Shown: positions 23,230 to 45,332, numbered from the stretch's first letter. The stretch is DNA of 64,000 nucleotides from a virus (IMGVR_UViG_3300044723_009336:6007-70006), one strand, 5' to 3'. The notes: generated by a model from the sequence alone, not told the origin. Program-made: numbers and translations.

Positions 23230-23237
23230 TATAAATA
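23230..23237 (+). promoter_or_regulatory. T4-type late promoter (TATAAATA)
   Basis: Exact consensus in the gap before the second fibre gene. Confidence 0.8.
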
Positions 23238-23271
23238 GTACTAAATAGCCGAACTGGGGAGAGTGAACCAT

Positions 23272-29413: not shown

Positions 29414-29416
29414 ATA
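29409..29416 (+). promoter_or_regulatory. T4-type late promoter (TATAAATA) overlapping the upstream stop codon
   Basis: Exact consensus 22 nt before ATG 29439. Confidence 0.75.
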
Positions 29417-29438
29417 GAGATAAGGTAGGTAGATTTAA

Positions 29439-31191: not shown

Positions 31192-31553
31192 CAGATACCT
31201 TTATCGTAGACAAAGATGGGAATCGAGTAAATGCATCAAATGTTACGGTACCATCAGATAGATTATTCCGTGATTCATGGGTACTCAGTGGATCAGTTAT
31301 CGAAGAGGATCTAACAAAGGCAAAGGAGATCTTTCGTGATAAAGTTCGTGAAGTAAGAAAAGGATTACTTGATGCAAAAGACGTAGAGTATATGAAGGCA
31401 CTTGAGACGAGTGCAGATACTTCTGCGATTATATCGACAAAACAGAGTTTGAGAGATGCACCAAGTGCGTCAGCAATAGATAATGCAACGACGATTGCTG
31501 AACTAAAAGCAGCATGGGATACAGACTTATTAGGTGATAATCCTTATAGCTAA
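31188..31553 (+). CDS. Putative tail fibre assembly chaperone
   Basis: SDRLFRDSW...KAKEIFRDKVREVRKGLL...KQSLRDAP...ELKAAW. Start at ATG 31188 (ATGA overlap). Confidence 0.7.
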   Translation: MTDTFIVDKDGNRVNASNVTVPSDRLFRDSWVLSGSVIEEDLTKAKEIFRDKVREVRKGLLDAKDVEYMKALETSADTSAIISTKQSLRDAPSASAIDNATTIAELKAAWDTDLLGDNPYS

Positions 31554-32503
31554 TGGAAAGTGAAATGACAGAAGAAAACAAAAATGAAGTGGCTATCTTT
31601 GAACAAATTCGTACGAATGTTCAAGTAGCAGATCGAAATGAATATAAAGTACCGATGGCGATGGTTTTTGGAAAGGGATCACTTGCGCGGACCGAAAGTT
31701 TTGGTGGTAGTTCTCTCGTCGAGAATTCAGAGAAAGTAGATCTCGCCATTCAAAATACAAATGAGTTACAGAATATCTGGAATCACTCGCACTCGCAGTG
31801 GATGTGGAAACATTTGAATCTCTCTTATCATTCTCCTCATAAGAACATGAGACAGATCGCCGCAGAGATGAATCGAAAAAAGTCAGCACTCAACGAGGCG
31901 AAGTGGAGACAGGTCAAGAACGAGGTCAAGATCAAAAAGATCGAAGAAGAACTCGAGTCTGGCAAATGTGATTATTGGAGAGAGGTCGATCTCACAGTCA
32001 AACTCACTGAACTGAGAGAGGGACTCGCCGAAGGTATCGTAACGATCGAAGGTGCGATGAAAGACGTTCTCGTACTCAATGAGTTATACGAGCAACTGAA
32101 AGGTAAGGTCTCTAGTTTCTCTGAAGTCGATATCGAGATGGAAGAGAGTAAGACACACTTGAAGAGAAGTATCGTTCAGTCAATTCGCGACGTTCGTATG
32201 TCGGGATCGATTACGAAGGCAGAACAAGAATACTTAGAACAGATCGGCGTGAATCCAATGAAGATGCAGAATCTGATTCGACAGTACGTCAAACAAGAAG
32301 CAGAGTCGACTTCGTGGGATAACAAAGGATTATATGATTTCGTTGATGGCATAGTGAAAGATTTGATAGACAATCATAAGGTTGATATCATAAGAATGGA
32401 GTATATGGGATTTGACTCGAAGCCTGTAGAGAACATGTCTTATGATACAGTCGTAGCAAGGAGAATAGAAGGCAATGAGCAAACTAATCGTAACGACGAT
32501 TGA
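31553..32503 (+). CDS. Coiled-coil protein of unknown function heading the propeller array
   Basis: Long charged heptad region (NMRQIAAEMNRKKSALNEAKW...LTELREGL) and SIRDVR...ITKAEQEYLEQIGVNP motif. Confidence 0.75.
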   Translation: MESEMTEENKNEVAIFEQIRTNVQVADRNEYKVPMAMVFGKGSLARTESFGGSSLVENSEKVDLAIQNTNELQNIWNHSHSQWMWKHLNLSYHSPHKNMRQIAAEMNRKKSALNEAKWRQVKNEVKIKKIEEELESGKCDYWREVDLTVKLTELREGLAEGIVTIEGAMKDVLVLNELYEQLKGKVSSFSEVDIEMEESKTHLKRSIVQSIRDVRMSGSITKAEQEYLEQIGVNPMKMQNLIRQYVKQEAESTSWDNKGLYDFVDGIVKDLIDNHKVDIIRMEYMGFDSKPVENMSYDTVVARRIEGNEQTNRNDD

Positions 32504-32834
32504 GGATGCGAGTGGAGCAGCAGGTACAGTTACCTTTACGGGTTCTGTCGAAGCAGTCGACTTCAACTCGACTTCTGATGCTCGTCTCAAGACAGAGATC
32601 ACAGGTATCGAAGGAGGTCTGAATAAGATCGCTCAGATGCGAGGTGTGACATTTAAGATTCACGATAAACCATCGGCTGGTGTCGTTGCGCAAGAATTAG
32701 AACAAGTAATTCCTGCTGCAGTCAAGACTGGCGATGATGACTATAAGTCAGTGAACTACAACGTCATTATCGGATATCTGATTGAGGCAGTCAAAGAACT
32801 TCAAGAGGAAGTCAATACTCTGAAAGGTCAGTAA
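32475..32834 (+). CDS. Peptidase S74 intramolecular chaperone with only a ~33-aa N-terminal segment
   Basis: SDARLK (S34/K39), LRGV-like MRGVTF, GVVAQELEQVIP, SVNYNVIIGYLIEAVKEL. AAGGAG RBS at 32458-32463. Confidence 0.85.
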   Translation: MSKLIVTTIEDASGAAGTVTFTGSVEAVDFNSTSDARLKTEITGIEGGLNKIAQMRGVTFKIHDKPSAGVVAQELEQVIPAAVKTGDDDYKSVNYNVIIGYLIEAVKELQEEVNTLKGQ

Positions 32835-32835
32835 A

Positions 32836-33792
32836 GTGGCCTATCAAGTCAGTGGCACTGAAAAGATAAAAGATGATAACACTGTAACATTCAAGACAGT
32901 TACAGTGACAAATTACTATACGCTTTTTGGTGGGATTGGGGCGGGTGCTTCTTTTGGATATTCATCTGGTGGATTTTCTCCACCGTATGTCAATACGATT
33001 GATAAATTTACTTTTAGTGCTGATGCTAATGCAACTGATGTCGGTGATCTCACTCAAGCAAGAGGATTTATAGCAGGCCAATCTTCTGCTACAAATGGAT
33101 ACACATCTGCTGGCACTACTCCTGGAGCAGTCAATACAATCGACAAATTTCCTTTTAGTGTAGACGCTAATGCTACTGATGTTGGGGATGTGATTCAAGC
33201 AAGAAGCGGAGTAGCAGGCCAATCATCAACTGAAAATGGGTATGTATCTGGAGGAAGTGTTAGTAATATAATAGAAAAATTTCCTTTTAGTACAGACGCT
33301 AACGCAGCTGACGTAGGCGACTTAACTCAAGCAAGAGATCGCGTTATAGGACAATCATCTATTTCGAATGGTTACACATCAGCAGGACTAATTCCAGGTC
33401 CAACTACAGTCAATACAATCGACAAATTTCCTTTTAGTGCTGACGCTAACGCAACAGACGTTGGTGATCTCACTCAAGCAAGATACGGTGCAGCAAATCA
33501 TTCATCAATTGACAATGGTTATGCTGCTGGAGGGTTTGCTCCAGGATTAGTAAATATAATAGATAAGTTTCCATTTGCTGCTGATGCGAATGCAACAGAT
33601 GTTGGAGACCTAACTCAGTCGAGATCATCTAGTGTTGGGCAAAGCTCAGATACAAATGGGTATAGTTCTGGCGGTAGTAGTCCACCTACTGTCAATATAA
33701 TAGATAAGTTTCCATTTAGTGCAGACGCTAACGCAGCTGACGTAGGTGATCTGAGTCAAGTGAGATATGGCGCAGCAGGACAACAAGGATAG
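32836..33792 (+). CDS. Six-blade Kelch-like beta-propeller protein 1 of 8
   Basis: Six GYxSGG...IDKFPFSADANATDVGDLTQAR...GQSS repeats. GTG start. Confidence 0.85.
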   Translation: MAYQVSGTEKIKDDNTVTFKTVTVTNYYTLFGGIGAGASFGYSSGGFSPPYVNTIDKFTFSADANATDVGDLTQARGFIAGQSSATNGYTSAGTTPGAVNTIDKFPFSVDANATDVGDVIQARSGVAGQSSTENGYVSGGSVSNIIEKFPFSTDANAADVGDLTQARDRVIGQSSISNGYTSAGLIPGPTTVNTIDKFPFSADANATDVGDLTQARYGAANHSSIDNGYAAGGFAPGLVNIIDKFPFAADANATDVGDLTQSRSSSVGQSSDTNGYSSGGSSPPTVNIIDKFPFSADANAADVGDLSQVRYGAAGQQG

Positions 33793-33796
33793 AAAT

Positions 33797-34792
33797 ATGG
33801 TTTATAAAGTATCAGGAACAGACGCACTCAAAGACGATAACACAGCAGTTTTTCGAAATGTAATTGTGACTACGAATCAGACGACATCTACAGGCCTCGG
33901 AGGATCTACGAGTGGATATGCATCAGGCGGAGCAGCTCCTGCTTTTTCTACTGTAATAGATAAATTCCCATTTTCTGCTGACGCAAATGCGACTGATGTA
34001 GGAGATCTAACTCAAGGAAGAACCAATGTATCTGGTCAATCATCAGCTGATAATGGATATTCATCTGGGGGCACACCTGCAATCAATATAATTGATAAAT
34101 TCCCGTTTAGCGCTGATGCCAACGCAACAGATGTAGGAGACTTAACACAAGGCCGAGCTTCGTCATCCGGACAGTCATCGTCTGATAATGGATACACTTC
34201 AGGAGGATCCAATACAGGATTTCCGATAGTTGGTACAAATACAATAGATAAATTCCCATTTTCTGCTGACGCAAATGCGACAGATGTTGGAGATTTATTA
34301 GGTATAAGATTAGATGCTTCTGGCCAGTCTTCTTCATCTAATGGTTATATATCTGGGGGACAAGATCAAACTCCAGGGGGAACAGGTGCCTCTAATATTA
34401 TTCAAAAATTTCCATTTTCTGCCGATGCCAATTCAACAGATGTTGGAGATCTGACCGTAGCTAAAATTCAATCTTCAGGTCAATCATCATCGACCCATGG
34501 ATATACATCTGGCGGTCCAAACAGCAATATTATTGAAAAGTTTTCCTTTAGTACAGACGCAAATGCAACAGATGTGGGAGATTTGACTCAGGCAAGATAC
34601 AAACCTGCAGGCCAATCATCAACTGAAAACGGATATGCTGCTGGTGGGTATAATTCTGGTAATCCAGCTCCGCCACCTCCTCTTCAAAATTTTGATACGA
34701 TTGATAAGTTTCCTTTTAGCACTGATGCTAACGCAACAGATGTTGGTAATTTAACTCAAGCAAGAAATGCTGCTACAGGACAACAGGTGTAA
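33797..34792 (+). CDS. Kelch-like propeller protein 2 of 8
   Basis: Six repeats. Start re-placed at ATG 33797 (MVYKVSG), matching paralog N-termini. Confidence 0.85.
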   Translation: MVYKVSGTDALKDDNTAVFRNVIVTTNQTTSTGLGGSTSGYASGGAAPAFSTVIDKFPFSADANATDVGDLTQGRTNVSGQSSADNGYSSGGTPAINIIDKFPFSADANATDVGDLTQGRASSSGQSSSDNGYTSGGSNTGFPIVGTNTIDKFPFSADANATDVGDLLGIRLDASGQSSSSNGYISGGQDQTPGGTGASNIIQKFPFSADANSTDVGDLTVAKIQSSGQSSSTHGYTSGGPNSNIIEKFSFSTDANATDVGDLTQARYKPAGQSSTENGYAAGGYNSGNPAPPPPLQNFDTIDKFPFSTDANATDVGNLTQARNAATGQQV

Positions 34793-34795
34793 TGA

Positions 34796-35791
34796 ATGCC
34801 GTATAAGATCAATCTACCACTCGTAGGAAGCACGGGAACTCGAAAGAAAGTCGTGATCGACGAGAACAACGATCTATTCATTGATGTGTCTCGCGTCGGA
34901 TCTTTTGTAGGGATTTCACCGGTGCAAGGATCTACGAGTGGATATGCATCTGGTGGTATACCTACTCCTGGCACTTCTACAAATATTATAGATAAGTTTC
35001 CTTTCGCGGCAGATGCGAATGCTACCGATGTGGGAGATCTAACTCAATCAAGATATTCTGTAGCTGGTCAGTCTTCTACTACGAGTGGATATAATTCTGG
35101 TGGACAAGTTCCCCCTTCTACGCCAGTTACCACAATCGATAAATTTCCTTTCAGTGCAGATGCAAATGCAACAGATGTTGGAGATCTAACGCAAGCAAGA
35201 GAACAACCTGTAGGAACATCTTCTGATACAAGCGGATATGCATCAGGTGGAAGAACTCCTGCTACGTCGAATGTAATCGATAAGTTTCCATTCAGTACTG
35301 ATGCAAACGCAACAGACGTAGGAGATCTAACTCAAGGAAGAGGTCAAATTGGAGGTCAATCATCACGTACTCATGGATATAATTCTGGAGGTTTTACACC
35401 ACCTACTCAGACTAATGTAATTGATAAATTTCCTTTTAGTTCTGATGCAAACGCCACCGATGTCGGAGATTTACTTTCTGCTAAAAGAGGTGTGACAGGA
35501 ACATCTTCTGATACAAATGGATATGCTTCAGGAGGATTCCCTTATCAAAATGTCATTGAAAAATTCCCCTTCAGTGCTGATGCAAATGGAGTTGATGTGG
35601 GCGATCTGACTGTATCAAAAGCATTTTCAGCTGGCCAGTCTTCTACTACGAGTGGATATAATTCTGGAGGAAACGGCACACCCCCAATTACTAACATTAT
35701 TGATAAATTTCCTTTTAGTTCAGATGCAAACGCAACTGATGTAGGTGACTTGACACAAGCAAGAAGTTCTTCAACAGGTCAACAGGTGTAA
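34796..35791 (+). CDS. Kelch-like propeller protein 3 of 8
   Basis: Six repeats alternating GYASGG/GYNSGG. Confidence 0.85.
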   Translation: MPYKINLPLVGSTGTRKKVVIDENNDLFIDVSRVGSFVGISPVQGSTSGYASGGIPTPGTSTNIIDKFPFAADANATDVGDLTQSRYSVAGQSSTTSGYNSGGQVPPSTPVTTIDKFPFSADANATDVGDLTQAREQPVGTSSDTSGYASGGRTPATSNVIDKFPFSTDANATDVGDLTQGRGQIGGQSSRTHGYNSGGFTPPTQTNVIDKFPFSSDANATDVGDLLSAKRGVTGTSSDTNGYASGGFPYQNVIEKFPFSADANGVDVGDLTVSKAFSAGQSSTTSGYNSGGNGTPPITNIIDKFPFSSDANATDVGDLTQARSSSTGQQV

Positions 35792-35829
35792 TAAATAGTA
35801 ACATGGCATATAAGATATCAGATACAGCA
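35774..35829 (+). repeat. 56-bp exact direct repeat, copy 1 (gene junction with AATAAATA)
   Basis: ACAGGTCAACAGGTGTAATAAATAGTAACATGGCATATAAGATATCAGATACAGCA, identical to 37770-37825. Confidence 0.9.
35790..35797 (+). promoter_or_regulatory. Probable late promoter (AATAAATA) inside the array
   Basis: NATAAATA variant 5 nt before ATG 35803. No obvious RBS, so the transcript may be near-leaderless. Confidence 0.55.
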
Positions 35830-36819
35830 CTTATTTTTGAATCAGATGGATCTGCAATTTTAGTTGCAGAGACAGTGAACTATCGAGGCACTTTGACTAC
35901 GACGAACACTACGTTCGACTTGGATCCAAATTATATCACAGATTACTTTCCTGCCGGATTTCAAGGAGAAGTAAGTGGATATGCATCTGGTGGCAGTCCT
36001 ACTACTAACATAATCGATAAGTTTCCTTTTAGTGCTGATGCAAATGCTACTGATGTTGGAGATTTAACTCAGGCAAGAAGCGCTAGTGCTGGACAATCAT
36101 CAGGCTCGAATGGTTATTCTTCTGGTGGATTTGCTCCACCTGGTGTTAATACGATTGATAAATTCCCTTTCAGTACTGATGCTAACGCAACTGATGTAGG
36201 TGATCTATCTCAAGCAAGATCATTTGTATCTGGTCAATCATCTGCGTCAAACGGTTATACTTCTGGAGGAATTTTTCCAGAACCTACCGTTAACACAATC
36301 GATAAGTTTCCATTTAGTAGTGATGCAAATGCAACAGATGTGGGCGATTTGTCTCAAGGAAGAAACGCTCTTGCAGGTCAATCGTCTTCTGAGAATGGAT
36401 ACACTTCTGGCGGCGGTGCTCCAGGAAGTGTCAATATAATAGACAAGTTTCCTTTTAGCACAGACGCTAATGCGTCAGACGTTGGTGATTTGAGTCAAAC
36501 AAGAGAAGGCACAACAGGTCAATCGTCTTCTGAAAATGGATATTCATCGGGTGGTTCGACTCCAACTCGAGTCAATACAATCGATAAGTTTCCATTTAGT
36601 GTTGACGCAAATGCGACTGATGTTGGAGATTTGACTCAAGCAAGAAGTGGACCAGGTGGACAATCATCCACTGAAAACGGATACGCATCTGGAGGATCAT
36701 CTGCACCTTTTAGCAGTCAGAATACGATTGATAAGTTTCCGTTCAGTACAGATACAAACGCAACTGACGTAGGTGATCTGACTCAAGTAAGAAATGGATT
36801 AGCAGGACAACAGGTATAA
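35803..36819 (+). CDS. Kelch-like propeller protein 4 of 8
   Basis: Six repeats after a MAYKISDT leader. Confidence 0.85.
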   Translation: MAYKISDTALIFESDGSAILVAETVNYRGTLTTTNTTFDLDPNYITDYFPAGFQGEVSGYASGGSPTTNIIDKFPFSADANATDVGDLTQARSASAGQSSGSNGYSSGGFAPPGVNTIDKFPFSTDANATDVGDLSQARSFVSGQSSASNGYTSGGIFPEPTVNTIDKFPFSSDANATDVGDLSQGRNALAGQSSSENGYTSGGGAPGSVNIIDKFPFSTDANASDVGDLSQTREGTTGQSSSENGYSSGGSTPTRVNTIDKFPFSVDANATDVGDLTQARSGPGGQSSTENGYASGGSSAPFSSQNTIDKFPFSTDTNATDVGDLTQVRNGLAGQQV

Positions 36820-36821
36820 CG

Positions 36822-37787
36822 ATGGTTTATAGAGTCAACAGAGATCCAATCATTGACGGCGACAGAGTACTTCGTGTCGATCGTATGCGCGTGGGAAGTT
36901 TTTCAGAAACCTATAAATTCCAGGGATCTACAAGCGGATATACATCTGGTGGATTTGCACCACCTTATACAAACGTAATTGATAAGTTTCCATTTAGTTC
37001 AGATGCTAACGCAACAGACGTCGGAGATTTGACTTCAGTTAGAGCTGGTCCAGCAGGACAATCTTCAGATGCAAGTGGATATTCGTCTGGAGGCAAAACC
37101 TCGTCTTATCTTAATATTATCGATAAGTTTCCTTTTAGTGCAGATACAAATGCAACAGATGTAGGAGATTTGACCCAAGCAAGATGGATTCCAGCAGGAC
37201 AATCATCATCAGAAAATGGATATACTTCAGGTGGGGATGTACCACCCGAGACTAATATCATTGATAAATTTTCTTTTAGTAGTGATGGAAATGCAACTGA
37301 CGTAGGAGATTTATCTCAAACGAGAGGTAGATTGGCTGGTCAATCTTCTTCTTCGAATGGTTACTCGTCAGGAGGTCATTCTGCATTTCCTACAACTACC
37401 AACGTCATAGATAAATTCCCATTCGCAGCAGATGCGAATGCAACAGATGTAGGAGATTTGACCCAAGCAAGAGGATATCCAGGAGGGCAATCATCTTCCG
37501 AAAATGGATACTCATCAGCTGGTTACGCAGGAGATGCTTCAGGATTGAATACTATAGATAAATTTCCATTTGCCGCAGACGCAAATGCTACTGATGTCGG
37601 AGATGTAACACAAGGAAGATATCCTGTTGCAGGACAATCGTCAACTTCTAATGGTTATTCTTCTGGAGGATATTCTTCTGGTGGGACTAACATTATAGAT
37701 AAATTTCCATTCGCTACTGATGCTAACGCAACTGATGTAGGTGATTTGACTCAAACAAGGTGGGAAACTACAGGTCAACAGGTGTAA
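36822..37787 (+). CDS. Kelch-like propeller protein 5 of 8
   Basis: Six repeats after a MVYRV leader. Confidence 0.85.
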   Translation: MVYRVNRDPIIDGDRVLRVDRMRVGSFSETYKFQGSTSGYTSGGFAPPYTNVIDKFPFSSDANATDVGDLTSVRAGPAGQSSDASGYSSGGKTSSYLNIIDKFPFSADTNATDVGDLTQARWIPAGQSSSENGYTSGGDVPPETNIIDKFSFSSDGNATDVGDLSQTRGRLAGQSSSSNGYSSGGHSAFPTTTNVIDKFPFAADANATDVGDLTQARGYPGGQSSSENGYSSAGYAGDASGLNTIDKFPFAADANATDVGDVTQGRYPVAGQSSTSNGYSSGGYSSGGTNIIDKFPFATDANATDVGDLTQTRWETTGQQV

Positions 37788-37825
37788 TAAATAGTAACAT
37801 GGCATATAAGATATCAGATACAGCA
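37770..37825 (+). repeat. 56-bp exact direct repeat, copy 2
   Basis: Identical to 35774-35829. Includes AATAAATA at 37786-37793. Confidence 0.9.
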
Positions 37826-38794
37826 ATCATAATCGAATCGGACGGAGAGACTATCCTCGTTGCCGAGTCTTTTCAGTACGAAGATAGCATTACGATATCG
37901 AATACTGAGTATACATTGAGTCCAACTTATATCACAGATTATTTTCCTCAACCATACACTTTCCAGGGAGAAACGAGTGGATATACCTCTGGTGGTGGTC
38001 CTAATGTCAACACAATTGATAAATTTTCTTTTACCTCTGACGCTAACGCAACTGATGTAGGTGATTTATCTCAAGGAAGAGGATTTGTAGCAGGCCAAAC
38101 ATCATCTACAAGTGGTTATACTTCTGGAGGAGGATGGCCGCCAACTTCACAAAATACTATTGATAAGTTTCCTTTTAGTACAGATGGTAATGCTACAGAT
38201 GTTGGGGATTTAACACAATTAAGATCAATGACGGTCGGGCAATCATCAGATGCTAACGGATATACATCTGGAGGGTATGTAACAGGACCATATAGTAATG
38301 TTATTGATAAATTTCCGTTTAGTGAAGATGCAAATGCAACTGATGTTGGGGATCTACGCGGGAATAGATACGCTTTAGCAGGTCAATCCTCTACCGAAAA
38401 TGGTTATATATCAGGGGAAGGTGTTATAGAAAAATTCCCTTTCAGTGCTGATGCTAATTCATCAGATGTTGGGGATTTATCTCATTTTCAAAGATTTGGT
38501 TTTGGTCAATCTTCGACAACGCATGGTTACCATTCTGGAGGACCTGATCTCAATATTATAGAAAAATTTCCTTTCAGTGCTGATGCTAATTCATCAGATG
38601 TTGGTGATTTAACAGTTGCAAGAGAGCGAGGGGCTGGCCAATCTTCTACGGAAAACGGATATAGTTCTGCAGGCTACCCACCAGGACTTAGTAGCAATAT
38701 AATTGATAAATTTCCGTTTACCTCGGATGCAAACGCCACTGATGTTGGGGATTTAACTAATAACAGACGTGAAGTTGCAGGACAACAGGTGTAA
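37799..38794 (+). CDS. Kelch-like propeller protein 6 of 8
   Basis: Six repeats. Start re-placed at ATG 37799 (MAYKISDT, as in paralog 4). Confidence 0.85.
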   Translation: MAYKISDTAIIIESDGETILVAESFQYEDSITISNTEYTLSPTYITDYFPQPYTFQGETSGYTSGGGPNVNTIDKFSFTSDANATDVGDLSQGRGFVAGQTSSTSGYTSGGGWPPTSQNTIDKFPFSTDGNATDVGDLTQLRSMTVGQSSDANGYTSGGYVTGPYSNVIDKFPFSEDANATDVGDLRGNRYALAGQSSTENGYISGEGVIEKFPFSADANSSDVGDLSHFQRFGFGQSSTTHGYHSGGPDLNIIEKFPFSADANSSDVGDLTVARERGAGQSSTENGYSSAGYPPGLSSNIIDKFPFTSDANATDVGDLTNNRREVAGQQV

Positions 38795-38796
38795 CG

Positions 38797-39837
38797 ATGG
38801 TTTATAGACTCGACGCAGGTACAGTAATAGACGCAGACGGTAACTTAGTTATCGAGAACCTGTATGCGAGTAGTGTTGCTCAGCAGTATTCATTTCAAGG
38901 ATCTACAAGTGGATATACATCAGGAGGAGCACCCACTTTACCTAGTATTAATAATATTGTTTCTAATACGATCGATAAGTTTCCATTTGCTGCAGATGCG
39001 AATGCAACAGATGTTGGTGATCTGACGTTGTCAACCAATTCATCTGCAGGATCACATTCTATGGAAAATGGGTATGTTTCTGGGGGTACTGCGCCAACGG
39101 ATTTTCCTACAAGAATTACAAATACGATTCAAAAATTTCCGTTCAGTGTCGACACTAATTCTACAGATATCGCAGATTTAACAGAAGCAAAGCATTTATT
39201 TGCAGGCCATTCTTCAGATGCTAATGGTTATACTTCTGGTGGTTCGGAAAATACCACCGTTGCAACACCACCCGCTAATCAATATAATACGATTGAAAAA
39301 TTTCCTTTCAGTGCAGACGCAAATGCAACTGACGTTGGGGATCTCACTCAAGTAAGAAGAAGCTCATCTGGTACGAGTTCGGAAACCCATGGATATACTG
39401 CAGGTGGTAACCTGTTTCCGGAATCACCCGGTACTACGCCAATTACAATTGATCGATTTCCTTTTAGTTCAGATGAAAATTCATCTGATGTAGGTGATCT
39501 CTATGCTGGAGCTGGTTTATCATCAGGTCAATCTTCTACTACTCATGGATATGCTTCGGGTCAAGGACCACCATATTTTTCTAATATTATACAAAAATAT
39601 TCATTTTCATCATCAGCTAACAGTTCCGATGTTGGAGACTTAACTGCAGGGAGAAGTATTCAAGCAGGGCAATCCTCTACAAATCATGGATACGTATCTG
39701 GTGGTCAAATTCCCCCATCGCCATCACCCGATGTAAGAGATATTATTGACAAATTTTCTTTTAGTGTAGACGCTAATGCAACAGACGTAGGTGATCTAAC
39801 TCAAGCAAGAGTATCCGCAACTGGTACAGAGATATAA
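38797..39837 (+). CDS. Kelch-like propeller protein 7 of 8
   Basis: Six repeats after a MVYRL leader. Longer Pro-rich loops. Confidence 0.85.
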   Translation: MVYRLDAGTVIDADGNLVIENLYASSVAQQYSFQGSTSGYTSGGAPTLPSINNIVSNTIDKFPFAADANATDVGDLTLSTNSSAGSHSMENGYVSGGTAPTDFPTRITNTIQKFPFSVDTNSTDIADLTEAKHLFAGHSSDANGYTSGGSENTTVATPPANQYNTIEKFPFSADANATDVGDLTQVRRSSSGTSSETHGYTAGGNLFPESPGTTPITIDRFPFSSDENSSDVGDLYAGAGLSSGQSSTTHGYASGQGPPYFSNIIQKYSFSSSANSSDVGDLTAGRSIQAGQSSTNHGYVSGGQIPPSPSPDVRDIIDKFSFSVDANATDVGDLTQARVSATGTEI

Positions 39838-39840
39838 ATA
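39833..39840 (+). promoter_or_regulatory. T4-type late promoter (TATAAATA) before propeller 8
   Basis: Exact consensus overlapping the upstream stop, 5 nt before ATG 39846. Confidence 0.7.
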
Positions 39841-39845
39841 GCAAC

Positions 39846-40901
39846 ATGGCATCAAAATATAAAATAGGTGGAAAAGCTATCCTAACAGACTCAGACGGAA
39901 CTCGAGATCTCATTGGTGTTTCTGTTGTCTACGAAGACTCTTTCACTGCTACGAATACGATTCGATCACTTGCACCAGATTACTTTGATGCTTATATATT
40001 TCCGAGTAATCCATTTCAGGGTGAAGTGAGTGGATATTCTAGTGGGGGTCGAGCTGCATCGAACGTTATAGATAAATTTCCCTTTGCATCAGATGCAAAT
40101 GCAACAGACCATGGGGATTTACAATATGGAAAAGAACAGCCAGCTGGGAATTCATCGGAAACTCATGGGTATTCATCTGGAACGTATTCTCCTTTCGGTA
40201 ACACTAAAACAATAGAAAAATGGTCATTTACATCTAATACTACTTCATCAAGCATAGGTAATTTAACTGCTCATAATGTTTACACTGGTCTCGGGATAGG
40301 CCAGTCTACTATTACAAACGGGTTTGGATATCACTCTGGTGGTAGAGGTGCGCAAAATACCGTAGAAAAGTTTCCATTCAGTTCAAATGCTGATGCAACC
40401 GATGCTCTTAATTTATCTTCGGGGAGAGAAAATCTTAGTGGTCAATCTGATGATGGCGGCGGGCATGGTTATACTGCAGGAGGTAGAAGAGGAATTCCTC
40501 CGGTAGCTGTTAATATAATTGATAAGTTTCCCTTTGCATCTGATGCGAATGCAACAGACGTAGGAGATACTTCAGTACTACATGACTACGGCACTGGTGG
40601 TCAATCGTCAGAAACTCATGGTTATATCGTTGGCGGGTTTCCACAAAATAGTGTAATCGATAAATTTTCTTTTGCCTCTGATGGAAATGCAACAAATATA
40701 GGAAATTTAATATCAGGTCCGAGAAATGATCGTATGGCAGGGCAATCATCATTTACACATGGATATGCAAGTGGATCAGGCCAGACTGCGCCAGATGGAA
40801 GTAACGTTATTCAAAAATGGCCATTTAGTAGTGATGCTGATGCAACCGACGTAGGTGATTTAACTAGGTCTATGGGTGAAATGGGTGGCCATCAGGTTTA
40901 G
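39846..40901 (+). CDS. Kelch-like propeller protein 8 of 8 (most divergent)
   Basis: Six more degenerate repeats ending GGHQV. Confidence 0.82.
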   Translation: MASKYKIGGKAILTDSDGTRDLIGVSVVYEDSFTATNTIRSLAPDYFDAYIFPSNPFQGEVSGYSSGGRAASNVIDKFPFASDANATDHGDLQYGKEQPAGNSSETHGYSSGTYSPFGNTKTIEKWSFTSNTTSSSIGNLTAHNVYTGLGIGQSTITNGFGYHSGGRGAQNTVEKFPFSSNADATDALNLSSGRENLSGQSDDGGGHGYTAGGRRGIPPVAVNIIDKFPFASDANATDVGDTSVLHDYGTGGQSSETHGYIVGGFPQNSVIDKFSFASDGNATNIGNLISGPRNDRMAGQSSFTHGYASGSGQTAPDGSNVIQKWPFSSDADATDVGDLTRSMGEMGGHQV

Positions 40902-40938
40902 AAACGATATATATAATTTTACATGAATACTTTATGAG

Positions 40939-42210
40939 GTGACAATGAATTCAATAGAATATTTTGAAAAAAATCGATACATTTATCTTGCAGATGTTTT
41001 ACCAAAAAATGTCTGTCAAGATCTCACTCAACATATGCACAATCTTCATAAGGAAGGTAAACTTGTTCAAGACGAACAGTGTCCACTTTCTTGGTCAGTC
41101 TATGGTGACTCGAAGTTTGATACATTACTTGCTAATCTAGCAAAACCAATTGGTGATAAACTTGGAGTAGAGATACTTCCGACATACACTTACGCACGTC
41201 TTTATCAGCCAGGCGATAGACTCAAAAAACATACTGACCGACCATCGTGCGAGATATCTGGTACTATGACACTTGGCTACGATCCAGACTCAGCACTTTG
41301 GCCAATCTTCTTTGGTAAAGATCAAAACGATCCAGGAACGTCATATGACATTGGCGTTGGTGATCTCGTTATGTATCGTGGAAACGAACTCGTTCACTGG
41401 AGACCAGAATATAAAGGTAAGTGGCAGGTTCAGGTTTTCTTCCACTATGTTGACGCAAATGGTCCACATAAGGAATGGGCAAATGATAAGAGAGCAGTTC
41501 TCGGAACTGGTGCTGAAACGAAAAAACAAAACACTGTTCAAAGAGAAACGATGGAAGAACCAGATAAGTACGAGTTTAAATATCATTTCTCTGCGAATAC
41601 AATGGCTATACTTCCTCAGGCAGATCATCTCCCAGGATATGCAGCTTTTTATAGTGGATTCAAACCAAAACTTGCATTTACACCTGAAGAATGTGATAAG
41701 ATTATTGCGACTGCAAGTAATCAATATGCGTCAAAGGCAAGAGTCGGTTCAGAGGCAACATCAAAAACTGACCTCAGTGTACGTAATGTAGATCAATATA
41801 ATATTGAACTGAATGAAGATACTCGATGGATCTATAATAAACTTGTACTTGCAGTCGCGATGGCGAATCACGAACATTTTGGTTTCAATATCAGTGGTAT
41901 TACTCACGATCTTCAATTACTTCACTATCGTTCAGACGATGGTAACGGTCACTATGACTGGCATGTCGACGTAGGTCACGGTCATTCTGCATGTCGTAAA
42001 ATTTCTATTTCAGTTATGCTTTCTCCAGATGATAAATATAAGGGTGGAGACTTAGAAGTAAACGATCACGGAGTACTTAGGCAAGGTGTTCGTGAGCAAG
42101 GATCAATCAACTTATTCCCGAGTTATATGCCACATCGTGTCGCACCAGTTACAGAAGGTGAGAGGTGGGCACTTGTTATATGGATAAACGGATCAGACAG
42201 ATTTAGATAA
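40939..42210 (+). CDS. Tandem double 2OG-Fe(II) oxygenase (N-terminal cyanophage-type domain plus C-terminal PKHD/prolyl-hydroxylase-like domain)
   Basis: Domain 1: YARLY...KKHTDRPSCEIS...ELVHWR. Domain 2: YDWHVD...RKISISVML...GGDL...FPSYMPHRVAPVTEGERWALVIW. Both have HxD...H triads. Start may be ATG 40945. Confidence 0.88.
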   Translation: MTMNSIEYFEKNRYIYLADVLPKNVCQDLTQHMHNLHKEGKLVQDEQCPLSWSVYGDSKFDTLLANLAKPIGDKLGVEILPTYTYARLYQPGDRLKKHTDRPSCEISGTMTLGYDPDSALWPIFFGKDQNDPGTSYDIGVGDLVMYRGNELVHWRPEYKGKWQVQVFFHYVDANGPHKEWANDKRAVLGTGAETKKQNTVQRETMEEPDKYEFKYHFSANTMAILPQADHLPGYAAFYSGFKPKLAFTPEECDKIIATASNQYASKARVGSEATSKTDLSVRNVDQYNIELNEDTRWIYNKLVLAVAMANHEHFGFNISGITHDLQLLHYRSDDGNGHYDWHVDVGHGHSACRKISISVMLSPDDKYKGGDLEVNDHGVLRQGVREQGSINLFPSYMPHRVAPVTEGERWALVIWINGSDRFR

Positions 42211-42220
42211 GGAGAATCAT

Positions 42221-42568
42221 ATGCCTGTTGTAGAATACAAGATGCATGTCATCAATAATAAAGGTGGCGCGACAGCACCACTTTGGGTAGATGATGGTGG
42301 ATATCATACATCACCTATCGATAAGACAAAGATTGGTTGGGTATTACCTGAAGCCGATCGTGAATACTATGTACCAGATACAGTCACTGAGTTATCGAAG
42401 AGTGAGTTCGTAACACGTCAGTTAGCAATCCATGCTGATACGCCATTTCAAAGTCAACCAGTTGACTCAAATGGTGAAGAAGTTGGAGACCCTGTTAATA
42501 TGACAGATGCTGAAGTAACAACCGATATGGAAGCATGGTACGATTCTTTTGTGAGTTCGCATAGCTAA
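42221..42568 (+). CDS. Hypothetical protein (115 aa)
   Basis: AAGGAG RBS. WVDDGGY...IGW...YYVPDTV motif. Confidence 0.7.
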   Translation: MPVVEYKMHVINNKGGATAPLWVDDGGYHTSPIDKTKIGWVLPEADREYYVPDTVTELSKSEFVTRQLAIHADTPFQSQPVDSNGEEVGDPVNMTDAEVTTDMEAWYDSFVSSHS

Positions 42569-42576
42569 TGGAGATA

Positions 42577-42696
42577 ATGCTTGCAAAACAGATACTCGAA
42601 CTCGAATCACACGAGCTCGAAGGTATCTTGATGAAACTGAAAATGGAAGATCGCGAAGCATATGAAAAATTGCAGGAGTTAGTTGAAGACTTATAA
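42577..42696 (+). CDS. Small helical protein (39 aa) missed by the ORF track
   Basis: GGAG RBS at 42570-42573. MLAKQILELESHELEGILMKLKMEDREAYEKLQELVEDL fills the gap between its neighbours. Confidence 0.55.
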   Translation: MLAKQILELESHELEGILMKLKMEDREAYEKLQELVEDL

Positions 42697-42700
42697 TATT

Positions 42701-43435
42701 ATGAATCATTATGAACGTTTTTTGAAAACAAAACTATTTACAGATCGTGTTGGACCAATATACGGTACCGAAGACTTTGGAATATATCTTTACTCAGTTA
42801 TCAAGATGATGAGACCAAAGAATATTTTAGAACTTGGTACTGGGCTTGGTACGACTATGCTATGGGCAGCACAAGCAATTCTTGAGAATAACGAAGGTAT
42901 TATTCACACTTTCGATGACGGAAGTGAATGGAATCATCTGAAGAATGCTCGTGATCAGATGGGCGAGTACTTTCGTGAAGATTATCTTTTCTATATCGAA
43001 AATCTCATTGACTCGTTTGAAATAAGAAAAGCTGTTGAGTTTCATCCAGTTCGAATCGAAGAGATAGAATCAGAGGCGCCAATCGATATACTCTTCTCTG
43101 ATTTCGCGCATGGGCCGTCTGATGTATTACAACTCCTTGCTGAATTTTTACCTCAGATGAATAGTTATAGTAAGATCTATATCGACTCTGCTTCTACTCA
43201 TTATGGGTCATATCACACTCTCGAAAAAGTAATTGATATGCTGAATCAGAATACGATTCCTCGATCCATTTCTGAACGAGCGAAGAATGACACCATACGT
43301 GATATCGTAAATCAGAGTCAGTTTCAACTCGATCATATTGTAGAAAACAAAGATCGTGCACAGAATAGTACTACTTGTATTACAATCCAACCATATGACG
43401 TATTTCCTTATCCGAGAGTCAATGTGAGGTATTGA
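42701..43435 (+). CDS. Class I SAM-dependent methyltransferase
   Basis: Motif I NILELGTGLGTT, IHTFDDG and IDILFSD. Start at ATG 42701 (track TTG 42683 also possible). Confidence 0.8.
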   Translation: MNHYERFLKTKLFTDRVGPIYGTEDFGIYLYSVIKMMRPKNILELGTGLGTTMLWAAQAILENNEGIIHTFDDGSEWNHLKNARDQMGEYFREDYLFYIENLIDSFEIRKAVEFHPVRIEEIESEAPIDILFSDFAHGPSDVLQLLAEFLPQMNSYSKIYIDSASTHYGSYHTLEKVIDMLNQNTIPRSISERAKNDTIRDIVNQSQFQLDHIVENKDRAQNSTTCITIQPYDVFPYPRVNVRY

Positions 43436-43980
43436 TGAAAGTAATCGATAATGTAATTGGTGATAAGTATTCAGAAATGATATTTGAAGAATGTGCGAAA
43501 CTTCCTTGGACCTTTGTACCAGATATATCATTTGGAAACCAAGCAAAGAGAAGTGTTCCAGGATTCTCACATAGTTTCTACCTCGATAAAGAATTCAATA
43601 ATAACGAACCAGTCACGATCGAATCAGAAAAATATCCTCTCATCAAACCTGTACTACTCGAAGCATTTGATAAATTGAATCTCAACATAAATTTACAAAA
43701 TGTTTTTCGTAGCCGCGCAAGACTCACGCTCGATCGTCCTGAATTATCTGAATCCGATCGTATTGACAACATTCACGTAGATTATCAAATCCCTCACCTC
43801 GTTTTGATATACTATGTCAATACGGTCGATGGTGATACTCTGGTATACGAAAATGATAAAATCGTAGAAAGAGTATCACCGAAGCGAGGTCGTTGTTTAC
43901 TGTTTGACGGTTCGCTACAACATACGTCCACGTCTCCTGCTCTTGGTCCAAGGATCATTATCAATAATAATATAAGGTGA
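43435..43980 (+). CDS. 2OG-Fe(II) oxygenase
   Basis: IHVD...LIYYVN..DGDT...PKRGRCLLFDGSLQHTSTSP...RIIINNN. TGATG coupling. Confidence 0.82.
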   Translation: MKVIDNVIGDKYSEMIFEECAKLPWTFVPDISFGNQAKRSVPGFSHSFYLDKEFNNNEPVTIESEKYPLIKPVLLEAFDKLNLNINLQNVFRSRARLTLDRPELSESDRIDNIHVDYQIPHLVLIYYVNTVDGDTLVYENDKIVERVSPKRGRCLLFDGSLQHTSTSPALGPRIIINNNIR

Positions 43981-43984
43981 ACTG

Positions 43985-44536
43985 ATGCATCCGAATCAAC
44001 ATAATCTTTTCGAAACTCCTATCTGGGGATTTATGCTCAACGATCAAAATTTACAGACATTTGATTATACTGATTACATTTTAGATATATCAAACACCGA
44101 ACAGTCTGCGACAAAGAGTAACATGGGTGGTTGGCAATCAAGAGATAATATTCACGAAGAACCGATCTTTCAAGAGTTCAATCGATCAATATTAGGTGCA
44201 GCAAAAAATATACTGAAAGACTACACTCAGTTAGAACCATATATTCAGAGTATGTGGGCAAACATTAATGTGAAGGGAGATTTCAACGCACACCACACTC
44301 ACGAAGGTGAACTATCGGGGGTTTATTACTGCAATGTACCAGAAAAATCAGGAGAATTGATACTCGTTGATCCTAAGGTGAGGTCTCATGTTTCTGTAAT
44401 AAGAAGTGGCAATTTTCCGATTCGTCCTGAAAGACTTGCTCTCATTATCTTTCCAAGTTGGTTAGAACATTACGTACAACCAAGTCAAAGTGATGATCCT
44501 CGAGTCAGTATTAGTTTCAATATAGGAATTAAATAA
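43985..44536 (+). CDS. 2OG-Fe(II) oxygenase-like protein (TIGR02466-type)
   Basis: SNMGGWQS, MWANIN...FNAHHTH...LSGVYY and IFPSWLEHYV...RVSISFN. Confidence 0.82.
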   Translation: MHPNQHNLFETPIWGFMLNDQNLQTFDYTDYILDISNTEQSATKSNMGGWQSRDNIHEEPIFQEFNRSILGAAKNILKDYTQLEPYIQSMWANINVKGDFNAHHTHEGELSGVYYCNVPEKSGELILVDPKVRSHVSVIRSGNFPIRPERLALIIFPSWLEHYVQPSQSDDPRVSISFNIGIK

Positions 44537-44537
44537 T

Positions 44538-44545
44538 TATAAATA
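44538..44545 (+). promoter_or_regulatory. T4-type late promoter (TATAAATA)
   Basis: Exact consensus before gp13. Confidence 0.82.
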
Positions 44546-44575
44546 GCCATAGATATTTTATTTACGGAGATTTCT

Positions 44576-45331: not shown

Positions 45332-45332
45332 C

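What the first reader, a model, noticed from the sequence alone, without database searches (positions are those of the whole stretch)
32836..40901. Tandem array of eight six-blade Kelch-like propellers: constant framework, hypervariable Pro-rich binding loops
Seen: 8 genes x 6 blades = 48 repeats of GYxSGG-[variable 2-12 aa]-N(T/I)IDKFPFSxDANATDVGDLTQAR-[variable ~4 aa]-GQSS. The framework is almost invariant while the two gaps differ in nearly every blade (FSPPYV, NPAPPPPLQ, QIPPSPSPDV, QVPPSTPV, WPPTSQ). By analogy with the Kelch consensus (YxxGG strand, then the ...R motif), these gaps are the two top-face loops that form the ligand surface. Late-promoter motifs at 35790, 37786 and 39833, the lack of signal peptides and the position among tail genes point to virion proteins. 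Inference: an antibody-like scaffold library of about 8 kb for receptor recognition or decoying, diversified without a DGR.
Basis: partly seen in the sequence, partly recalled or inferred. Interest (0 to 1): 0.85.

Follow-up and report, generated by a model that had tools for sequence, protein, structure and literature searches.

The report
Tandem Kelch-propeller genes in marine phage
An uncultured estuarine T4-like phage carries eight neighbouring genes that each encode a six-bladed Kelch-type propeller with an almost invariant scaffold and unique surface loops, most likely a set of virion-borne binding heads from a very large, undescribed phage-only protein family.

Summary
Window 32836-40901 holds eight intact, same-strand genes. 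Each encodes a 38-62-aa N-terminal segment followed by six ~47-aa repeats, 48 blades in all.

- **Fold:** AlphaFold2 models of the central paralog g4 (pLDDT 90) and the most divergent paralog g8 (pLDDT 84) are six-bladed Kelch propellers. Fit to KLHL17/Keap1/KLHL12 is Z 39, rmsd 1.7-1.9 Å.
- **Variation:** Blade framework identity averages 73%, although synonymous sites are saturated. All 48 B-C loops and all 48 D-A turns differ, and by Kelch topology both lie on one face.
- **Family:** It is very large (8,567 clusters at 50% identity), essentially phage-restricted and unnamed. Tandem arrays of 1-11 genes are its normal form.
- **Function, inferred:** In longer members the propeller is the C-terminal end of proteins with tail-fibre N-termini. 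In close relatives the flanking genes are 86-98% identical, but the propellers only 49-78%, and N-terminal segments and propellers have been reshuffled. This points to virion-borne binding heads. Virion location and ligand are untested.
- **No DGR signs** were found.
- **Enzyme link:** The arrays are recurrently tied to a 2OG-Fe(II) oxygenase/methyltransferase/sulfotransferase cassette, which hints at post-translational modification.

Verdict: a real feature and a new variant of a known kind.

The parts
32836..33792 (+). g1: propeller paralog, 318 aa, GTG start one base after the stop of the S74 gene; 40-aa N-terminal segment plus 6 blades
33797..34792 (+). g2: propeller paralog, 331 aa from the ATG at 33797 (longest ORF starts at 33767); its propeller is 88% identical to one in relative L003 that carries a different N-terminal type
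34796..35791 (+). g3: propeller paralog, 331 aa, 6 blades
35803..36819 (+). g4: propeller paralog, 338 aa, long 'MAYKISDTA' N-terminal type; modelled with pLDDT 90, pTM 0.85, Kelch fold
36822..37787 (+). g5: propeller paralog, 321 aa, short 'MVYRV' N-terminal type
37799..38794 (+). g6: propeller paralog, 331 aa from the ATG at 37799 (longest ORF starts at GTG 37760), long N-terminal type
38797..39837 (+). g7: propeller paralog, 346 aa, short N-terminal type, longest B-C loops (up to 16 aa)
39846..40901 (+). g8: most divergent paralog, 351 aa (39-49% identical to the others); modelled with pLDDT 84, pTM 0.82, Kelch fold
39833..39840 (+). exact T4-type late-promoter motif TATAAATA, 6 nt upstream of the g8 start
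35774..35829 (+). 56-bp stretch identical to 37770-37825. It spans the end of a short-type gene, an AATAAATA motif (35790-35797; second copy 37786-37793) and the start of a long-type gene. It marks a two-gene duplication or conversion unit of 1996 bp.
   Evidence: (D15)
37770..37825 (+). second copy of the 56-bp junction repeat
32475..32834 (+). linked context: stand-alone S74-type intramolecular-chaperone domain with a 33-aa passenger and its own AAGGAG ribosome-binding site. S74-domain ORFs sit directly upstream of propeller blocks in 15 related loci.
It sits where T4 has wac (fibritin), upstream of gp13.
   Evidence: position by T4 gene order (own knowledge)
40939..44536 (+). linked context: enzyme cassette. 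It holds a double 2OG-Fe(II) oxygenase, a small ORF, a Methyltransf_24 protein and two more 2OG-Fe(II) oxygenases. Homologs occur in 41 of 68 loci, and in 17 they are flanked on both sides by propeller genes.

Best explanation
The eight genes are old paralogs, transcribed late, of a phage-specific family. Each encodes a short N-terminal docking segment (38-62 aa, in two alternating types) and a C-terminal six-bladed Kelch-type beta-propeller. The 24-strand scaffold, and the loops on one face (A-B and C-D turns), are held nearly identical in every blade by purifying selection. The loops on the opposite face (B-C loop and D-A turn) differ in every blade and every paralog, and they form the ligand-binding surface, as in Keap1/KLHL Kelch domains. 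The proteins are most likely mounted on the virion (tail fibre, baseplate or neck region) through the N-terminal segment. There they would act as a repertoire of adhesin or receptor-binding heads. The repertoire changes by gene duplication and loss, slow divergence and recombination that re-pairs docking segments with propellers, not by a DGR. Shown: the fold, the variability pattern, the family size, the array structure, the synteny and the mosaicism. Inferred: virion location, which face binds, and what is bound.
For: - **Fold:** g4 model pLDDT 90 and g8 model pLDDT 84. Foldseek top hits are designed SAKe6 and Keap1/KLHL Kelch domains, TM by target about 0.9, rmsd 1.8-2.1 Å. An exhaustive structural search gives KLHL17/Keap1/KLHL12 at Z 39 (rmsd 1.7-1.9 Å, 276-277 residues aligned) against 18-21 for lectin, YWTD and NHL propellers. 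A sequence profile hits only Kelch chains, in register.
- **Variability:** over 1,231 blades from 206 distinct genes, entropy is mostly under 1.3 bits in the framework. It is 2.7-3.9 bits, with insertions, at positions 7-12, and 3.3-3.7 bits at positions 37-39.
- **Selection:** framework pS is 0.67-0.69 against pN 0.16-0.18, while in the loops pN is about equal to pS.
- **Late, structural setting:** the array lies between tail-fibre genes and gp13/14/15/17/18/20 homologs, with late-promoter motifs.
- **Fusions:** in longer relatives the propeller is always C-terminal, behind regions matching tail-fibre PHROGs (30742 at 3.7e-54; also 2631, 7032, 1197), LamG or glycine-rich fibre domains. The chain ends exactly at the last strand in 194 of 201 genes.
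- **Hypervariable island:** flanking genes are 86-98% identical to L002/L003/L006, but best propeller matches are 49-78%. Copy number is 8 against 9 and 9.
- **Mosaicism:** the partner with the best N-terminal match and the partner with the best propeller match differ. The g2 propeller is 88% identical to that of L003:5041-6159, which carries the other N-terminal type.
- **Phage-restricted:** only 11 short MAG contigs among 185,579 species genomes, and Atlas clusters are 100% viral.
Against: - There is no direct evidence that any member is in a virion or binds anything.
- Among 50,697 phage records searched by tblastn, only two cultured-phage entries (both Synechococcus phage S-SKS1) and one single-cell viral genome hold the family. 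I found no proteomics for them.
- A homotrimer prediction for g5 gave no verdict. The N-terminal segments are modelled with low confidence.
- The extreme conservation of polar residues (K17, D23, N25, D28, D31, R36, Q42) in every blade is more than a scaffold usually needs. The invariant part may itself be functional.
- Loop dN/dS of about 1 comes from saturated sites, so it cannot show positive selection.
- Variability was not mapped on coordinates.
Confidence: 0.55

Rival explanations
1. The propellers are substrates, or partners, of the neighbouring 2OG-Fe(II) oxygenase / methyltransferase / sulfotransferase cassette. Each blade carries the same recognition motif (the invariant FPFSxDANATDVGDL hairpin or the GG-aromatic-x-P-P loop start). 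The motif would be hydroxylated and then methylated or sulfated, so the working binding surface is chemically modified. This can hold together with a virion adhesin role.
For: - Homologs of the window's enzymes (40939-44536) occur in 41 of 68 related loci. They lie within 1.5 kb of a propeller gene in 34 loci and are flanked on both sides by propeller blocks in 17.
- The inserted cassettes in L004, L041 and L062 are PF13640 (P4H-like) and PF13759 oxygenases with Methyltransf_24 or a sulfotransferase.
- In the unrelated siphovirus S-SKS1 the propeller region is flanked by a sulfotransferase and 2OG oxygenases.
- Iyer et al. 2010 (PMC2938197) predicted hydroxylation followed by sulfation of co-encoded tail-collar or collagen-like proteins.
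- An enzyme recognition motif would explain why 48 blades keep the same residues at saturated dS.
Against: - 2OG oxygenase families (phrog_61, phrog_81, phrog_2954) are common in marine T4-like phages, while tblastn found the propeller in only 3 of 50,697 phage records. The enzymes therefore do not need propellers.
- The loci are not independent samples.
- No chemistry was tested, and linkage in a hypervariable island may simply reflect co-location of accessory genes.
Confidence: 0.2
2. Each propeller is a multivalent lectin-like or metal-binding module whose six equivalent sites are formed by the invariant residues. One candidate is the C-D turn with D-x-N-x-T-x-V-x-D spacing, reminiscent of integrin-type Ca2+ hairpins. 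The variable loops would be largely unconstrained or only modulatory.
For: - Conserved polar residues recur in every blade family-wide: K17 96%, D23 83%, N25 88%, D28 89%, D31 79%.
- Propeller lectins typically keep one site per blade, and beta-propeller lectins occur at eCIS fibre tips (PMC12923769).
- Near-perfect six-fold sequence symmetry is maintained by selection.
Against: - Structural similarity to lectin propellers is far lower (RSL Z 20.8, AAL 18.1) than to BTB-Kelch domains (Z 39).
- If all sites were identical there would be little reason to keep 8-11 diverged paralogs per genome, or to turn over whole propellers between near-identical phages.
- The Ca2+ motif reading comes from memory of integrin loops and was not tested.
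Confidence: 0.15
3. The proteins are on the virion but decorate it (neck, whiskers, sheath or head) to adhere to particles, polymers or non-host surfaces. They would not serve as the primary host receptor-binding proteins.
For:
- Kelch-like proteins in the jumbo phage CBB, one of them (CBB_552) found in virions, were discussed together with its tail hairs (PMC5259590).
- Separate long fibre genes exist upstream.
Against: Fusion partners in relatives match tail-fibre families, not neck or head proteins. The island-like turnover is typical of host-range determinants. This rival cannot be separated from the main reading with sequence data.
Confidence: 0.15
4. The proteins are not in the virion and act inside the cell. 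They would be Kelch substrate adaptors used for host takeover or anti-defence, as with poxvirus BTB-Kelch proteins.
For: The Kelch fold is classically a protein-protein adaptor. No virion evidence exists.
Against: - There is no BTB/BACK or other effector domain.
- The genes lie inside a late structural gene block with late-promoter motifs.
- Relatives fuse the propeller to tail-fibre N-termini, LamG and fn3 domains.
Confidence: 0.05

Closest known systems
BTB-Kelch substrate-adaptor domains (Keap1, KLHL2/3/12/17)
   Same: Six four-stranded blades, with rmsd 1.7-1.9 Å over about 276 residues and Z 39. Both have the aromatic-x-x-GG end of strand B and a basic residue after strand D. In Keap1/KLHL the B-C and D-A loops bind the ligand (established knowledge), and these are exactly the variable segments here.
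   Different: No BTB/BACK domains. Phage-encoded. Blades are about 73% identical to each other in the framework, whereas natural Kelch blades are typically far more divergent (own knowledge). No conserved Trp in strand D. Pfam Kelch models do not reach threshold.
SAKe designed symmetric Kelch propellers (PDB 7ON7, 8PJR, 8PJX and others)
   Same: They are the best Foldseek and sequence-profile matches. Both are six-fold, nearly sequence-symmetric Kelch propellers.
   Different: SAKe proteins are man-made consensus designs. Here the symmetry is natural, maintained at saturated synonymous divergence, and combined with asymmetric loops.
Kelch-like proteins of jumbo phages (for example vB_PcaM_CBB CBB_550/552/554, and phiKZ-like phages)
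   Same: Phage-encoded Kelch-type propellers. CBB_552 was found in virions by mass spectrometry (PMC5259590). BFVD structural hits include BcepSaruman, PhiPA3 and CBB Kelch proteins.
   Different: Only 14-19% identity. Those are recognised by Kelch domain models, are few per genome, and were not reported as tandem arrays with invariant blades.
Gp38 adhesins of T2/S16-type phages (own knowledge, not tested here)
   Same: The same logic: a conserved framework (glycine-rich motifs) presents hypervariable segments that set host range. It is a separately encoded tip protein that docks on a fibre.
   Different: A different fold (polyglycine sandwich), one gene per phage, and an experimentally proven function.
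Five-bladed propeller 'platform' of staphylococcal phage RBPs (phi11 Gp45 / 80alpha gp61)
   Same: A beta-propeller acts as the receptor-binding domain of a baseplate protein (PMC7048315).
   Different: Five blades, not Kelch, embedded in a trimeric coiled-coil/tower protein, single copy.
DGR-diversified receptor-binding proteins (Bordetella phage BPP-1 Mtd)
   Same: A constant scaffold with variable ligand-binding residues in a phage tail-fibre protein. A few family members carry an Mtd_N-type N-terminal domain according to precomputed Pfam hits (PF18454).
   Different: No reverse transcriptase, no template repeat, a Kelch rather than a C-type-lectin fold, and loops stable across samples.

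Membership tests
Kelch-type six-bladed beta-propeller (fold/superfamily level) | Six blades, each a four-stranded antiparallel sheet from a 44-56-aa repeat | tested here: met
   Six repeats spaced 41-56 aa in every paralog. DSSP shows 24 strands in the propeller part of the g4 and g8 models.
Kelch-type six-bladed beta-propeller (fold/superfamily level) | Superposes on solved Kelch domains better than on other propeller classes | tested here: met
   KLHL17/Keap1/KLHL12 score Z 39.1-39.5 at rmsd 1.7-1.9 Å. YjhT scores 26.6, RSL lectin 20.8, YWTD about 20, NHL about 18, sialidase 16.9.
Kelch-type six-bladed beta-propeller (fold/superfamily level) | Gly-Gly doublet preceded by an aromatic residue at the end of strand B | tested here: met
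   Over 1,231 blades: G1 100%, Y2 98%, G5 95%, G6 96%. This aligns in register with YAVGG of Kelch chains.
Kelch-type six-bladed beta-propeller (fold/superfamily level) | Conserved Arg/Lys after strand D | tested here: met
   R36 76% plus K 7%. It aligns with the Arg of SAKe/KLHL12.
Kelch-type six-bladed beta-propeller (fold/superfamily level) | Conserved Trp in strand D of the classical Kelch motif | tested here: not met
   Strand D is T-D-V-G-D-L-T with no Trp. Many accepted Kelch repeats also lack it (own knowledge), so I file this as a divergent branch of the fold, not as a Pfam Kelch_1-6 member.
Pfam Kelch families (Kelch_1-6 and related) | Score above the curated gathering threshold | tested here: not met
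   No Kelch model is listed at E up to 1 for any of the 8 proteins. A family profile reaches SAKe6FR at E 4.5e-5 and KLHL12 at 0.05. In two Atlas sister clusters, 18-22% of members carry PF01344 or PF24681.
Phage receptor-binding / tail-fibre tip proteins | Encoded in the tail/baseplate-fibre block and expressed late | tested here: met
   Neighbours match tail-fibre, baseplate, gp13/14/15 and sheath families. TATAAATA lies at 39833 and upstream at 29409. Transcription itself was not shown.
Phage receptor-binding / tail-fibre tip proteins | Conserved N-terminal anchor joined to a variable, exchangeable C-terminal binding domain | tested here: met
   N-terminal segments match those of relatives at up to 85% while the attached propeller is about 50% identical, and the best partners are discordant. 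The g2 and L003:5041-6159 propellers are 88% identical but carry different N-terminal types. Flanks are 86-98% identical against 49-78% for propellers.
Phage receptor-binding / tail-fibre tip proteins | Physical presence in the virion and binding to a host surface receptor | not testable with these tools
   Needs virion mass spectrometry, cryo-EM and adsorption assays. The only cultured carrier found is Synechococcus phage S-SKS1.
Phage receptor-binding / tail-fibre tip proteins | Homotrimeric assembly | tested here: inconclusive
   Three copies of g5 scored 0.00, and the tool gave no verdict for or against.
DGR variable proteins | Reverse transcriptase and a template/variable repeat pair | tested here: not met
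   No RVT_1 match on the 72.9-kb contig, although it is only about 42% of a genome. The only near-exact repeat is the 56-bp gene-junction repeat, and blade DNA copies are 60-82% identical.
Beta-propeller lectins (AAL, RSL, tachylectin type) | Closest structural class, with one conserved sugar site per blade | tested here: inconclusive
   The fold match is much weaker than to Kelch (Z 18-21 against 39). The per-blade conserved polar residues neither prove nor exclude repeated sites.

The most novel reading that the evidence does not exclude
The propeller arrays and the adjoining 2OG-Fe(II) oxygenase / methyltransferase / sulfotransferase cassette form one system. The enzymes would hydroxylate, and then methylate or sulfate, a motif repeated in every blade. 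That requirement would explain why 48 blades (1,231 family-wide) stay nearly identical at saturated synonymous divergence. The product would be a set of chemically modified virion binding heads. If true, this would give a substrate and a purpose to the long-unexplained dioxygenase clusters of marine T4-like phages.
Probability: 0.2. Interest if true: 0.85.

Novelty: new variant of a known kind. Interest (0 to 1): 0.66.

Why it matters
**Host recognition.** The family is very abundant. It has 8,567 clusters at 50% identity and arrays of up to 11 genes per 20-kb locus, yet it has no name, no Pfam model and no literature that I could find. If the proteins are host-recognition heads, they are a major and overlooked determinant of host range in uncultured marine and estuarine myoviruses. 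Recombinant propellers could be used as probes to fish out the unknown hosts.

**Protein science.** This is a natural propeller with designed-like six-fold sequence symmetry, kept by selection rather than by recent duplication. Only the loops of one face are free to vary, which makes it a ready-made binding scaffold.

**The oxygenase puzzle.** The recurrent link to 2OG-Fe(II) oxygenase, methyltransferase and sulfotransferase genes offers a concrete, testable substrate hypothesis for an old question in cyanophage genomics.

Tried and rejected
- **Close DNA relatives:** megablast of the array against 50,697 phage records found no match.
- **Family assignment:** Pfam gave only spurious sub-threshold hits (THDPS_M, DUF4907) caused by the repeat. 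PHROG 19111 has no function assigned.
- **Homotrimer:** prediction for g5 scored 0.00 and gave no verdict, so it is not evidence either way.
- **Population variation:** laying contigs of four public runs on 29000-46000 gave many short pieces and chimeric joints from related phages and paralogs. It showed identical pieces of the array in three other estuary samples, but could not resolve per-site microdiversity. The metatranscriptome contigs are relatives and do not show transcription.
- **dN/dS in loops:** about 1, but all sites are saturated, so I rejected it as evidence of positive selection.
- **Near-identical gene pairs:** only 8 usable pairs. Substitutions ran 3-fold higher in the loops (7.3% and 6.1% against 2.2% in the framework). 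This is suggestive, but the sample is small.
- **S74 passenger idea:** no convincing similarity between the 33-aa S74 passenger and the propeller N-termini.
- **Frameshift fusion idea:** a fusion of the 31553-32503 gene to the S74 gene is unlikely, because the S74 gene has its own AAGGAG ribosome-binding site.
- **Recent gene conversion:** rejected as the cause of framework identity, since pS is 0.67-0.69 and the blades are about equally distant within and between genes.
- **Single-site enzyme:** considered unlikely, because conservation is equal in all six blades.
- **Cellular origin or prophage:** rejected, as only 11 short MAG contigs were found.

Full report
**1.

The window is part of a 72.9-kb IMG/VR viral contig with a CheckV completeness of about 42%. 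Eight + strand ORFs fill 32836-40901 back to back. A simple motif scan finds six repeats per protein at 41-56-aa spacing. A blade HMM built from the window finds six blades in each gene.

All 48 B-C segments (2-16 aa, with 16% Pro) and all 48 D-A segments are different. Pairwise blade identity averages 73% in 33 framework columns and 15% in 11 loop columns.

Three small corrections are needed:
- g2 and g6 probably start at 33797 and 37799, as their paralogs do.
- Of the three 'late promoters', only 39833 is an exact TATAAATA. 35790 and 37786 read AATAAATA.
- All 11 exact TATAAATA sites in the window are on the + strand shortly upstream of ORFs, so the motif is very probably a real late promoter here.

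**2. The fold is a Kelch-type six-bladed propeller**

AlphaFold2 with a 55-sequence alignment gives g4 a mean pLDDT of 90 and pTM of 0.85. The model has four strands per repeat, and residues 1-55 are modelled with low confidence. The most divergent paralog, g8, gives pLDDT 84 and pTM 0.82.

For both models, the top Foldseek hits in the PDB are the designed symmetric SAKe6 Kelch propellers and the Keap1/KLHL Kelch domains. TM by target is about 0.9 and rmsd 1.8-2.1 Å.

A search that does not depend on Foldseek ranks KLHL17, Keap1 and KLHL12 first, at Z 39, rmsd 1.7-1.9 Å and 276-277 aligned residues. These lie far above YjhT (26.6), RSL lectin (20.8), YWTD (about 20), NHL (about 18), AAL (18.1) and sialidases (about 17).

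Pfam Kelch models do not reach threshold. A profile of the family hits only Kelch chains among all PDB sequences: SAKe6FR at E 4.5e-5 and KLHL12 at 0.05. The alignment is in register, with Y..GG over YAVGG and the basic residue over the Kelch Arg.

I therefore place the proteins in the Kelch-type fold as a divergent branch that lacks the classical strand-D Trp.

**3. Where the variation lies**

By DSSP, GYxSG is strand B, NxIDKFP is strand C, TDVGDLTQAR is strand D and AGQS is strand A of the next blade. The C-terminal AGQQV strand would close the ring, and 194 of 201 family genes end exactly there.

The variable stretches are therefore the B-C loop and the D-A turn. In an up-down four-stranded blade these two emerge on the same face. 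In Keap1/KLHL proteins that face binds the ligand (established structural knowledge). The constant A-B and C-D turns lie on the other face. This is a topological inference, as I had no coordinates on which to map entropy.

The pattern holds family-wide. I took 1,231 blades from 206 distinct genes in 68 related loci:

| Blade HMM positions | Structural element | Entropy |
|---|---|---|
| most framework columns | strands and constant turns | under about 1.3 bits |
| 7-12 | B-C loop | 2.7-3.9 bits, plus insertions |
| 37-39 | D-A turn | 3.3-3.7 bits |

**4. Old paralogs under purifying selection**

Among the 48 blades, synonymous differences are saturated (pS 0.67-0.69). Framework non-synonymous differences are low (pN 0.16-0.18, dN/dS about 0.1). 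Blades of one gene are no closer to each other than to blades of other genes. At the DNA level the copies are 60-82% identical.

So the constant framework reflects selection, not recent duplication or gene conversion. In the loops pN is about equal to pS, but both are saturated, so this does not show positive selection.

The one clearly recent event is a 56-bp exact repeat at 35774-35829 and 37770-37825, inside a 182-bp stretch of 81% identity. It spans the end of a short-type gene, the AATAAATA motif and the start of a long-type gene, and it marks a 1996-bp two-gene unit.

No reverse transcriptase is present on the contig and there is no template/variable repeat pair. Identical stretches of the array occur in contigs from three other estuary samples. 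The loops are inherited alleles, not products of ongoing hypermutation.

**5. The family and its arrays**

The family is very large and essentially unnamed.
- A search of 1.84 billion cluster representatives finds 8,567 clusters at E ≤ 0.001 and 1,565 at E ≤ 1e-30.
- Every source name shown among the best hits of a 5.8-billion-protein search is either absent or 'hypothetical protein'.
- Atlas clusters are 100% viral.
- Among 185,579 bacterial and archaeal species genomes, only 11 short MAG contigs carry it.
- Among 50,697 phage records, tblastn finds it only in Synechococcus phage S-SKS1 (two records) and one single-cell viral genome.
- I found no paper describing it, including a search for the motif string.

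Kelch-like proteins are known from jumbo phages, and one of them is virion-associated (PMC5259590).

Tandem arrays are the family's normal form. The 68 IMG/VR loci hold 1 to 11 six-blade genes each, and the window's closest relatives hold 9 (L003), 9 (L006) and at least 7 (L002).

**6. Evidence on function**

- **Gene context.** The array lies between tail-fibre or virion structural genes and homologs of gp13, gp14, gp15, gp17, gp18 and gp20. In the closest isolate, phage C48C1 (Kyanoviridae, portal 67% identical), a giant tail-fibre gene and a structural gene occupy that position.
- **Fusions.** In longer family members the propeller is always the C-terminal domain. It follows regions matching tail-fibre PHROGs (30742 at E 3.7e-54; also 2631, 7032, 1197), LamG lectin domains, glycine-rich fibre domains or fn3.
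- **Hypervariable island.** Against L002/L003/L006, flanking proteins are 86-98% identical, while the best propeller matches are only 49-78% identical. That is no better than paralogs within the window, at 39-67%.
- **Mosaicism.** N-terminal segments and propellers have different nearest relatives. The g5 N-terminus is 85% identical to one L003 gene whose propeller is 50% identical. The g2 propeller is 88% identical, unusual loops included, to an L003 propeller that carries the other N-terminal type.

A conserved anchor joined to an exchangeable binding domain inside a fast-turning island is the classical signature of phage host-recognition proteins. I therefore favour virion-borne adhesin or receptor-binding heads at 0.55. 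Location and ligand are inferred, not shown.

**7. Linked genes and the most novel reading**

An S74 intramolecular-chaperone ORF directly precedes propeller blocks in 15 loci. It is usually the C-terminus of a longer fibre protein. In the window it carries only a 33-aa passenger and has its own ribosome-binding site.

Homologs of the 316-aa protein at 31553-32503 occur in 34 loci.

The most notable link is to the enzyme cassette at 40939-44536, which holds a double 2OG-Fe(II) oxygenase, a Methyltransf_24 protein and two more 2OG oxygenases.
- Homologs occur in 41 of 68 loci. They lie within 1.5 kb of a propeller gene in 34 loci and are flanked on both sides by propeller blocks in 17.
- In L062 the cassette includes a sulfotransferase.
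- In the unrelated siphovirus S-SKS1 the propeller region is also flanked by a sulfotransferase and 2OG oxygenases.
- Iyer et al. 2010 predicted hydroxylation followed by sulfation of co-encoded tail-collar or collagen-like proteins, and noted the unexplained dioxygenase arrays of cyanophages (PMC2938197).

A motif that modifying enzymes must recognise in every blade would explain the unusual invariance of polar residues: K17, D23, N25, D28, D31, R36 and Q42. The caveats are that these oxygenase families are common in marine T4-like phages while the propeller was found in only 3 of 50,697 phage records, and that the loci are not independent. I give this reading 0.2.

**8. Rivals**

- **Multivalent lectin or metal site in the invariant turn (0.15).** The weak similarity to lectin propellers and the maintenance of many diverged paralogs argue against it.
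- **Virion decoration rather than primary receptor binding (0.15).** Sequence data cannot separate this from the main reading.
- **Intracellular Kelch adaptor (0.05).** The late structural context and the fibre fusions argue against it.

A homotrimer prediction gave no verdict.

**9. Verdict**

This is a real, well-defined feature. The fold and the logic (a constant scaffold with variable binding loops on a phage fibre-module protein) belong to known kinds. The new elements are:
- the near-perfect natural six-fold symmetry, kept by selection;
- the organisation as large tandem repertoires;
- the sheer size of an unnamed phage-only family;
- the tie to protein-modifying enzymes.

Noticed in passing
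window 40939-44536; L004:4417-8868; L041:11239-15418; L062:10906-14347; L001 (S-SKS1) 3512-8191: A cassette of 2OG-Fe(II) oxygenases (PF13640, PF13759) with Methyltransf_24, or with a sulfotransferase in L062 and S-SKS1, recurs next to or inside propeller arrays. Homologs occur in 41 of 68 loci, and in 17 the cassette is flanked on both sides by propeller blocks.
   Followed up: partly
window 32475-32834: A stand-alone S74 intramolecular-chaperone domain with only a 33-aa passenger and its own AAGGAG ribosome-binding site at 32459. In 15 related loci an S74-domain ORF, usually the end of a 180-914-aa fibre protein, directly precedes a propeller block.
   Followed up: partly
It lies where T4 has wac (fibritin), upstream of gp13. 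It overlaps the S74 gene by 29 nt in another frame.
   Followed up: partly
window 30701-31267 (ORF 30700-31191, 163 aa): This bin has roughly 2- to 50-fold the summed contig depth of its neighbouring bins in all four public runs, the metatranscriptome included (608, 623, 488 and 222). A segment shared at ≥85% identity with many other community members would explain this. The ORF has no PHROG match.
   Followed up: no
window, all 11 TATAAATA sites (1947, 5853, 13312, 15140, 23230, 29409, 39833, 44538, 48933, 56630, 57214): Every exact T4-type late-promoter motif is on the + strand, 13-135 nt upstream of an ORF start. About 5.6 sites on either strand are expected by chance.
   Followed up: partly
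proteins P0121, P0184, P0185, P0189, P0201 (metagenomic relatives): Giant relatives of 1,138-1,934 aa match the propeller in 4-9 separate stretches. The family therefore also exists as several propellers fused in one chain.
   Followed up: no
L071-L081 (genome contigs): The only 'cellular' hits are 11 contigs of 1-14 kb in MAGs (for example Gammaproteobacteria Nau_16, Glaciecola, Planctomycetota). They are most likely phage contigs binned into MAGs, not host genes.
   Followed up: no
window 21244-29413 and 29439-30730: Upstream fibre and virion structural genes match PHROGs 8510, 24074, 892 and 11355. Relative P0202 joins a LamG domain of that kind to a propeller in one protein, which links the two gene sets.
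   Followed up: no
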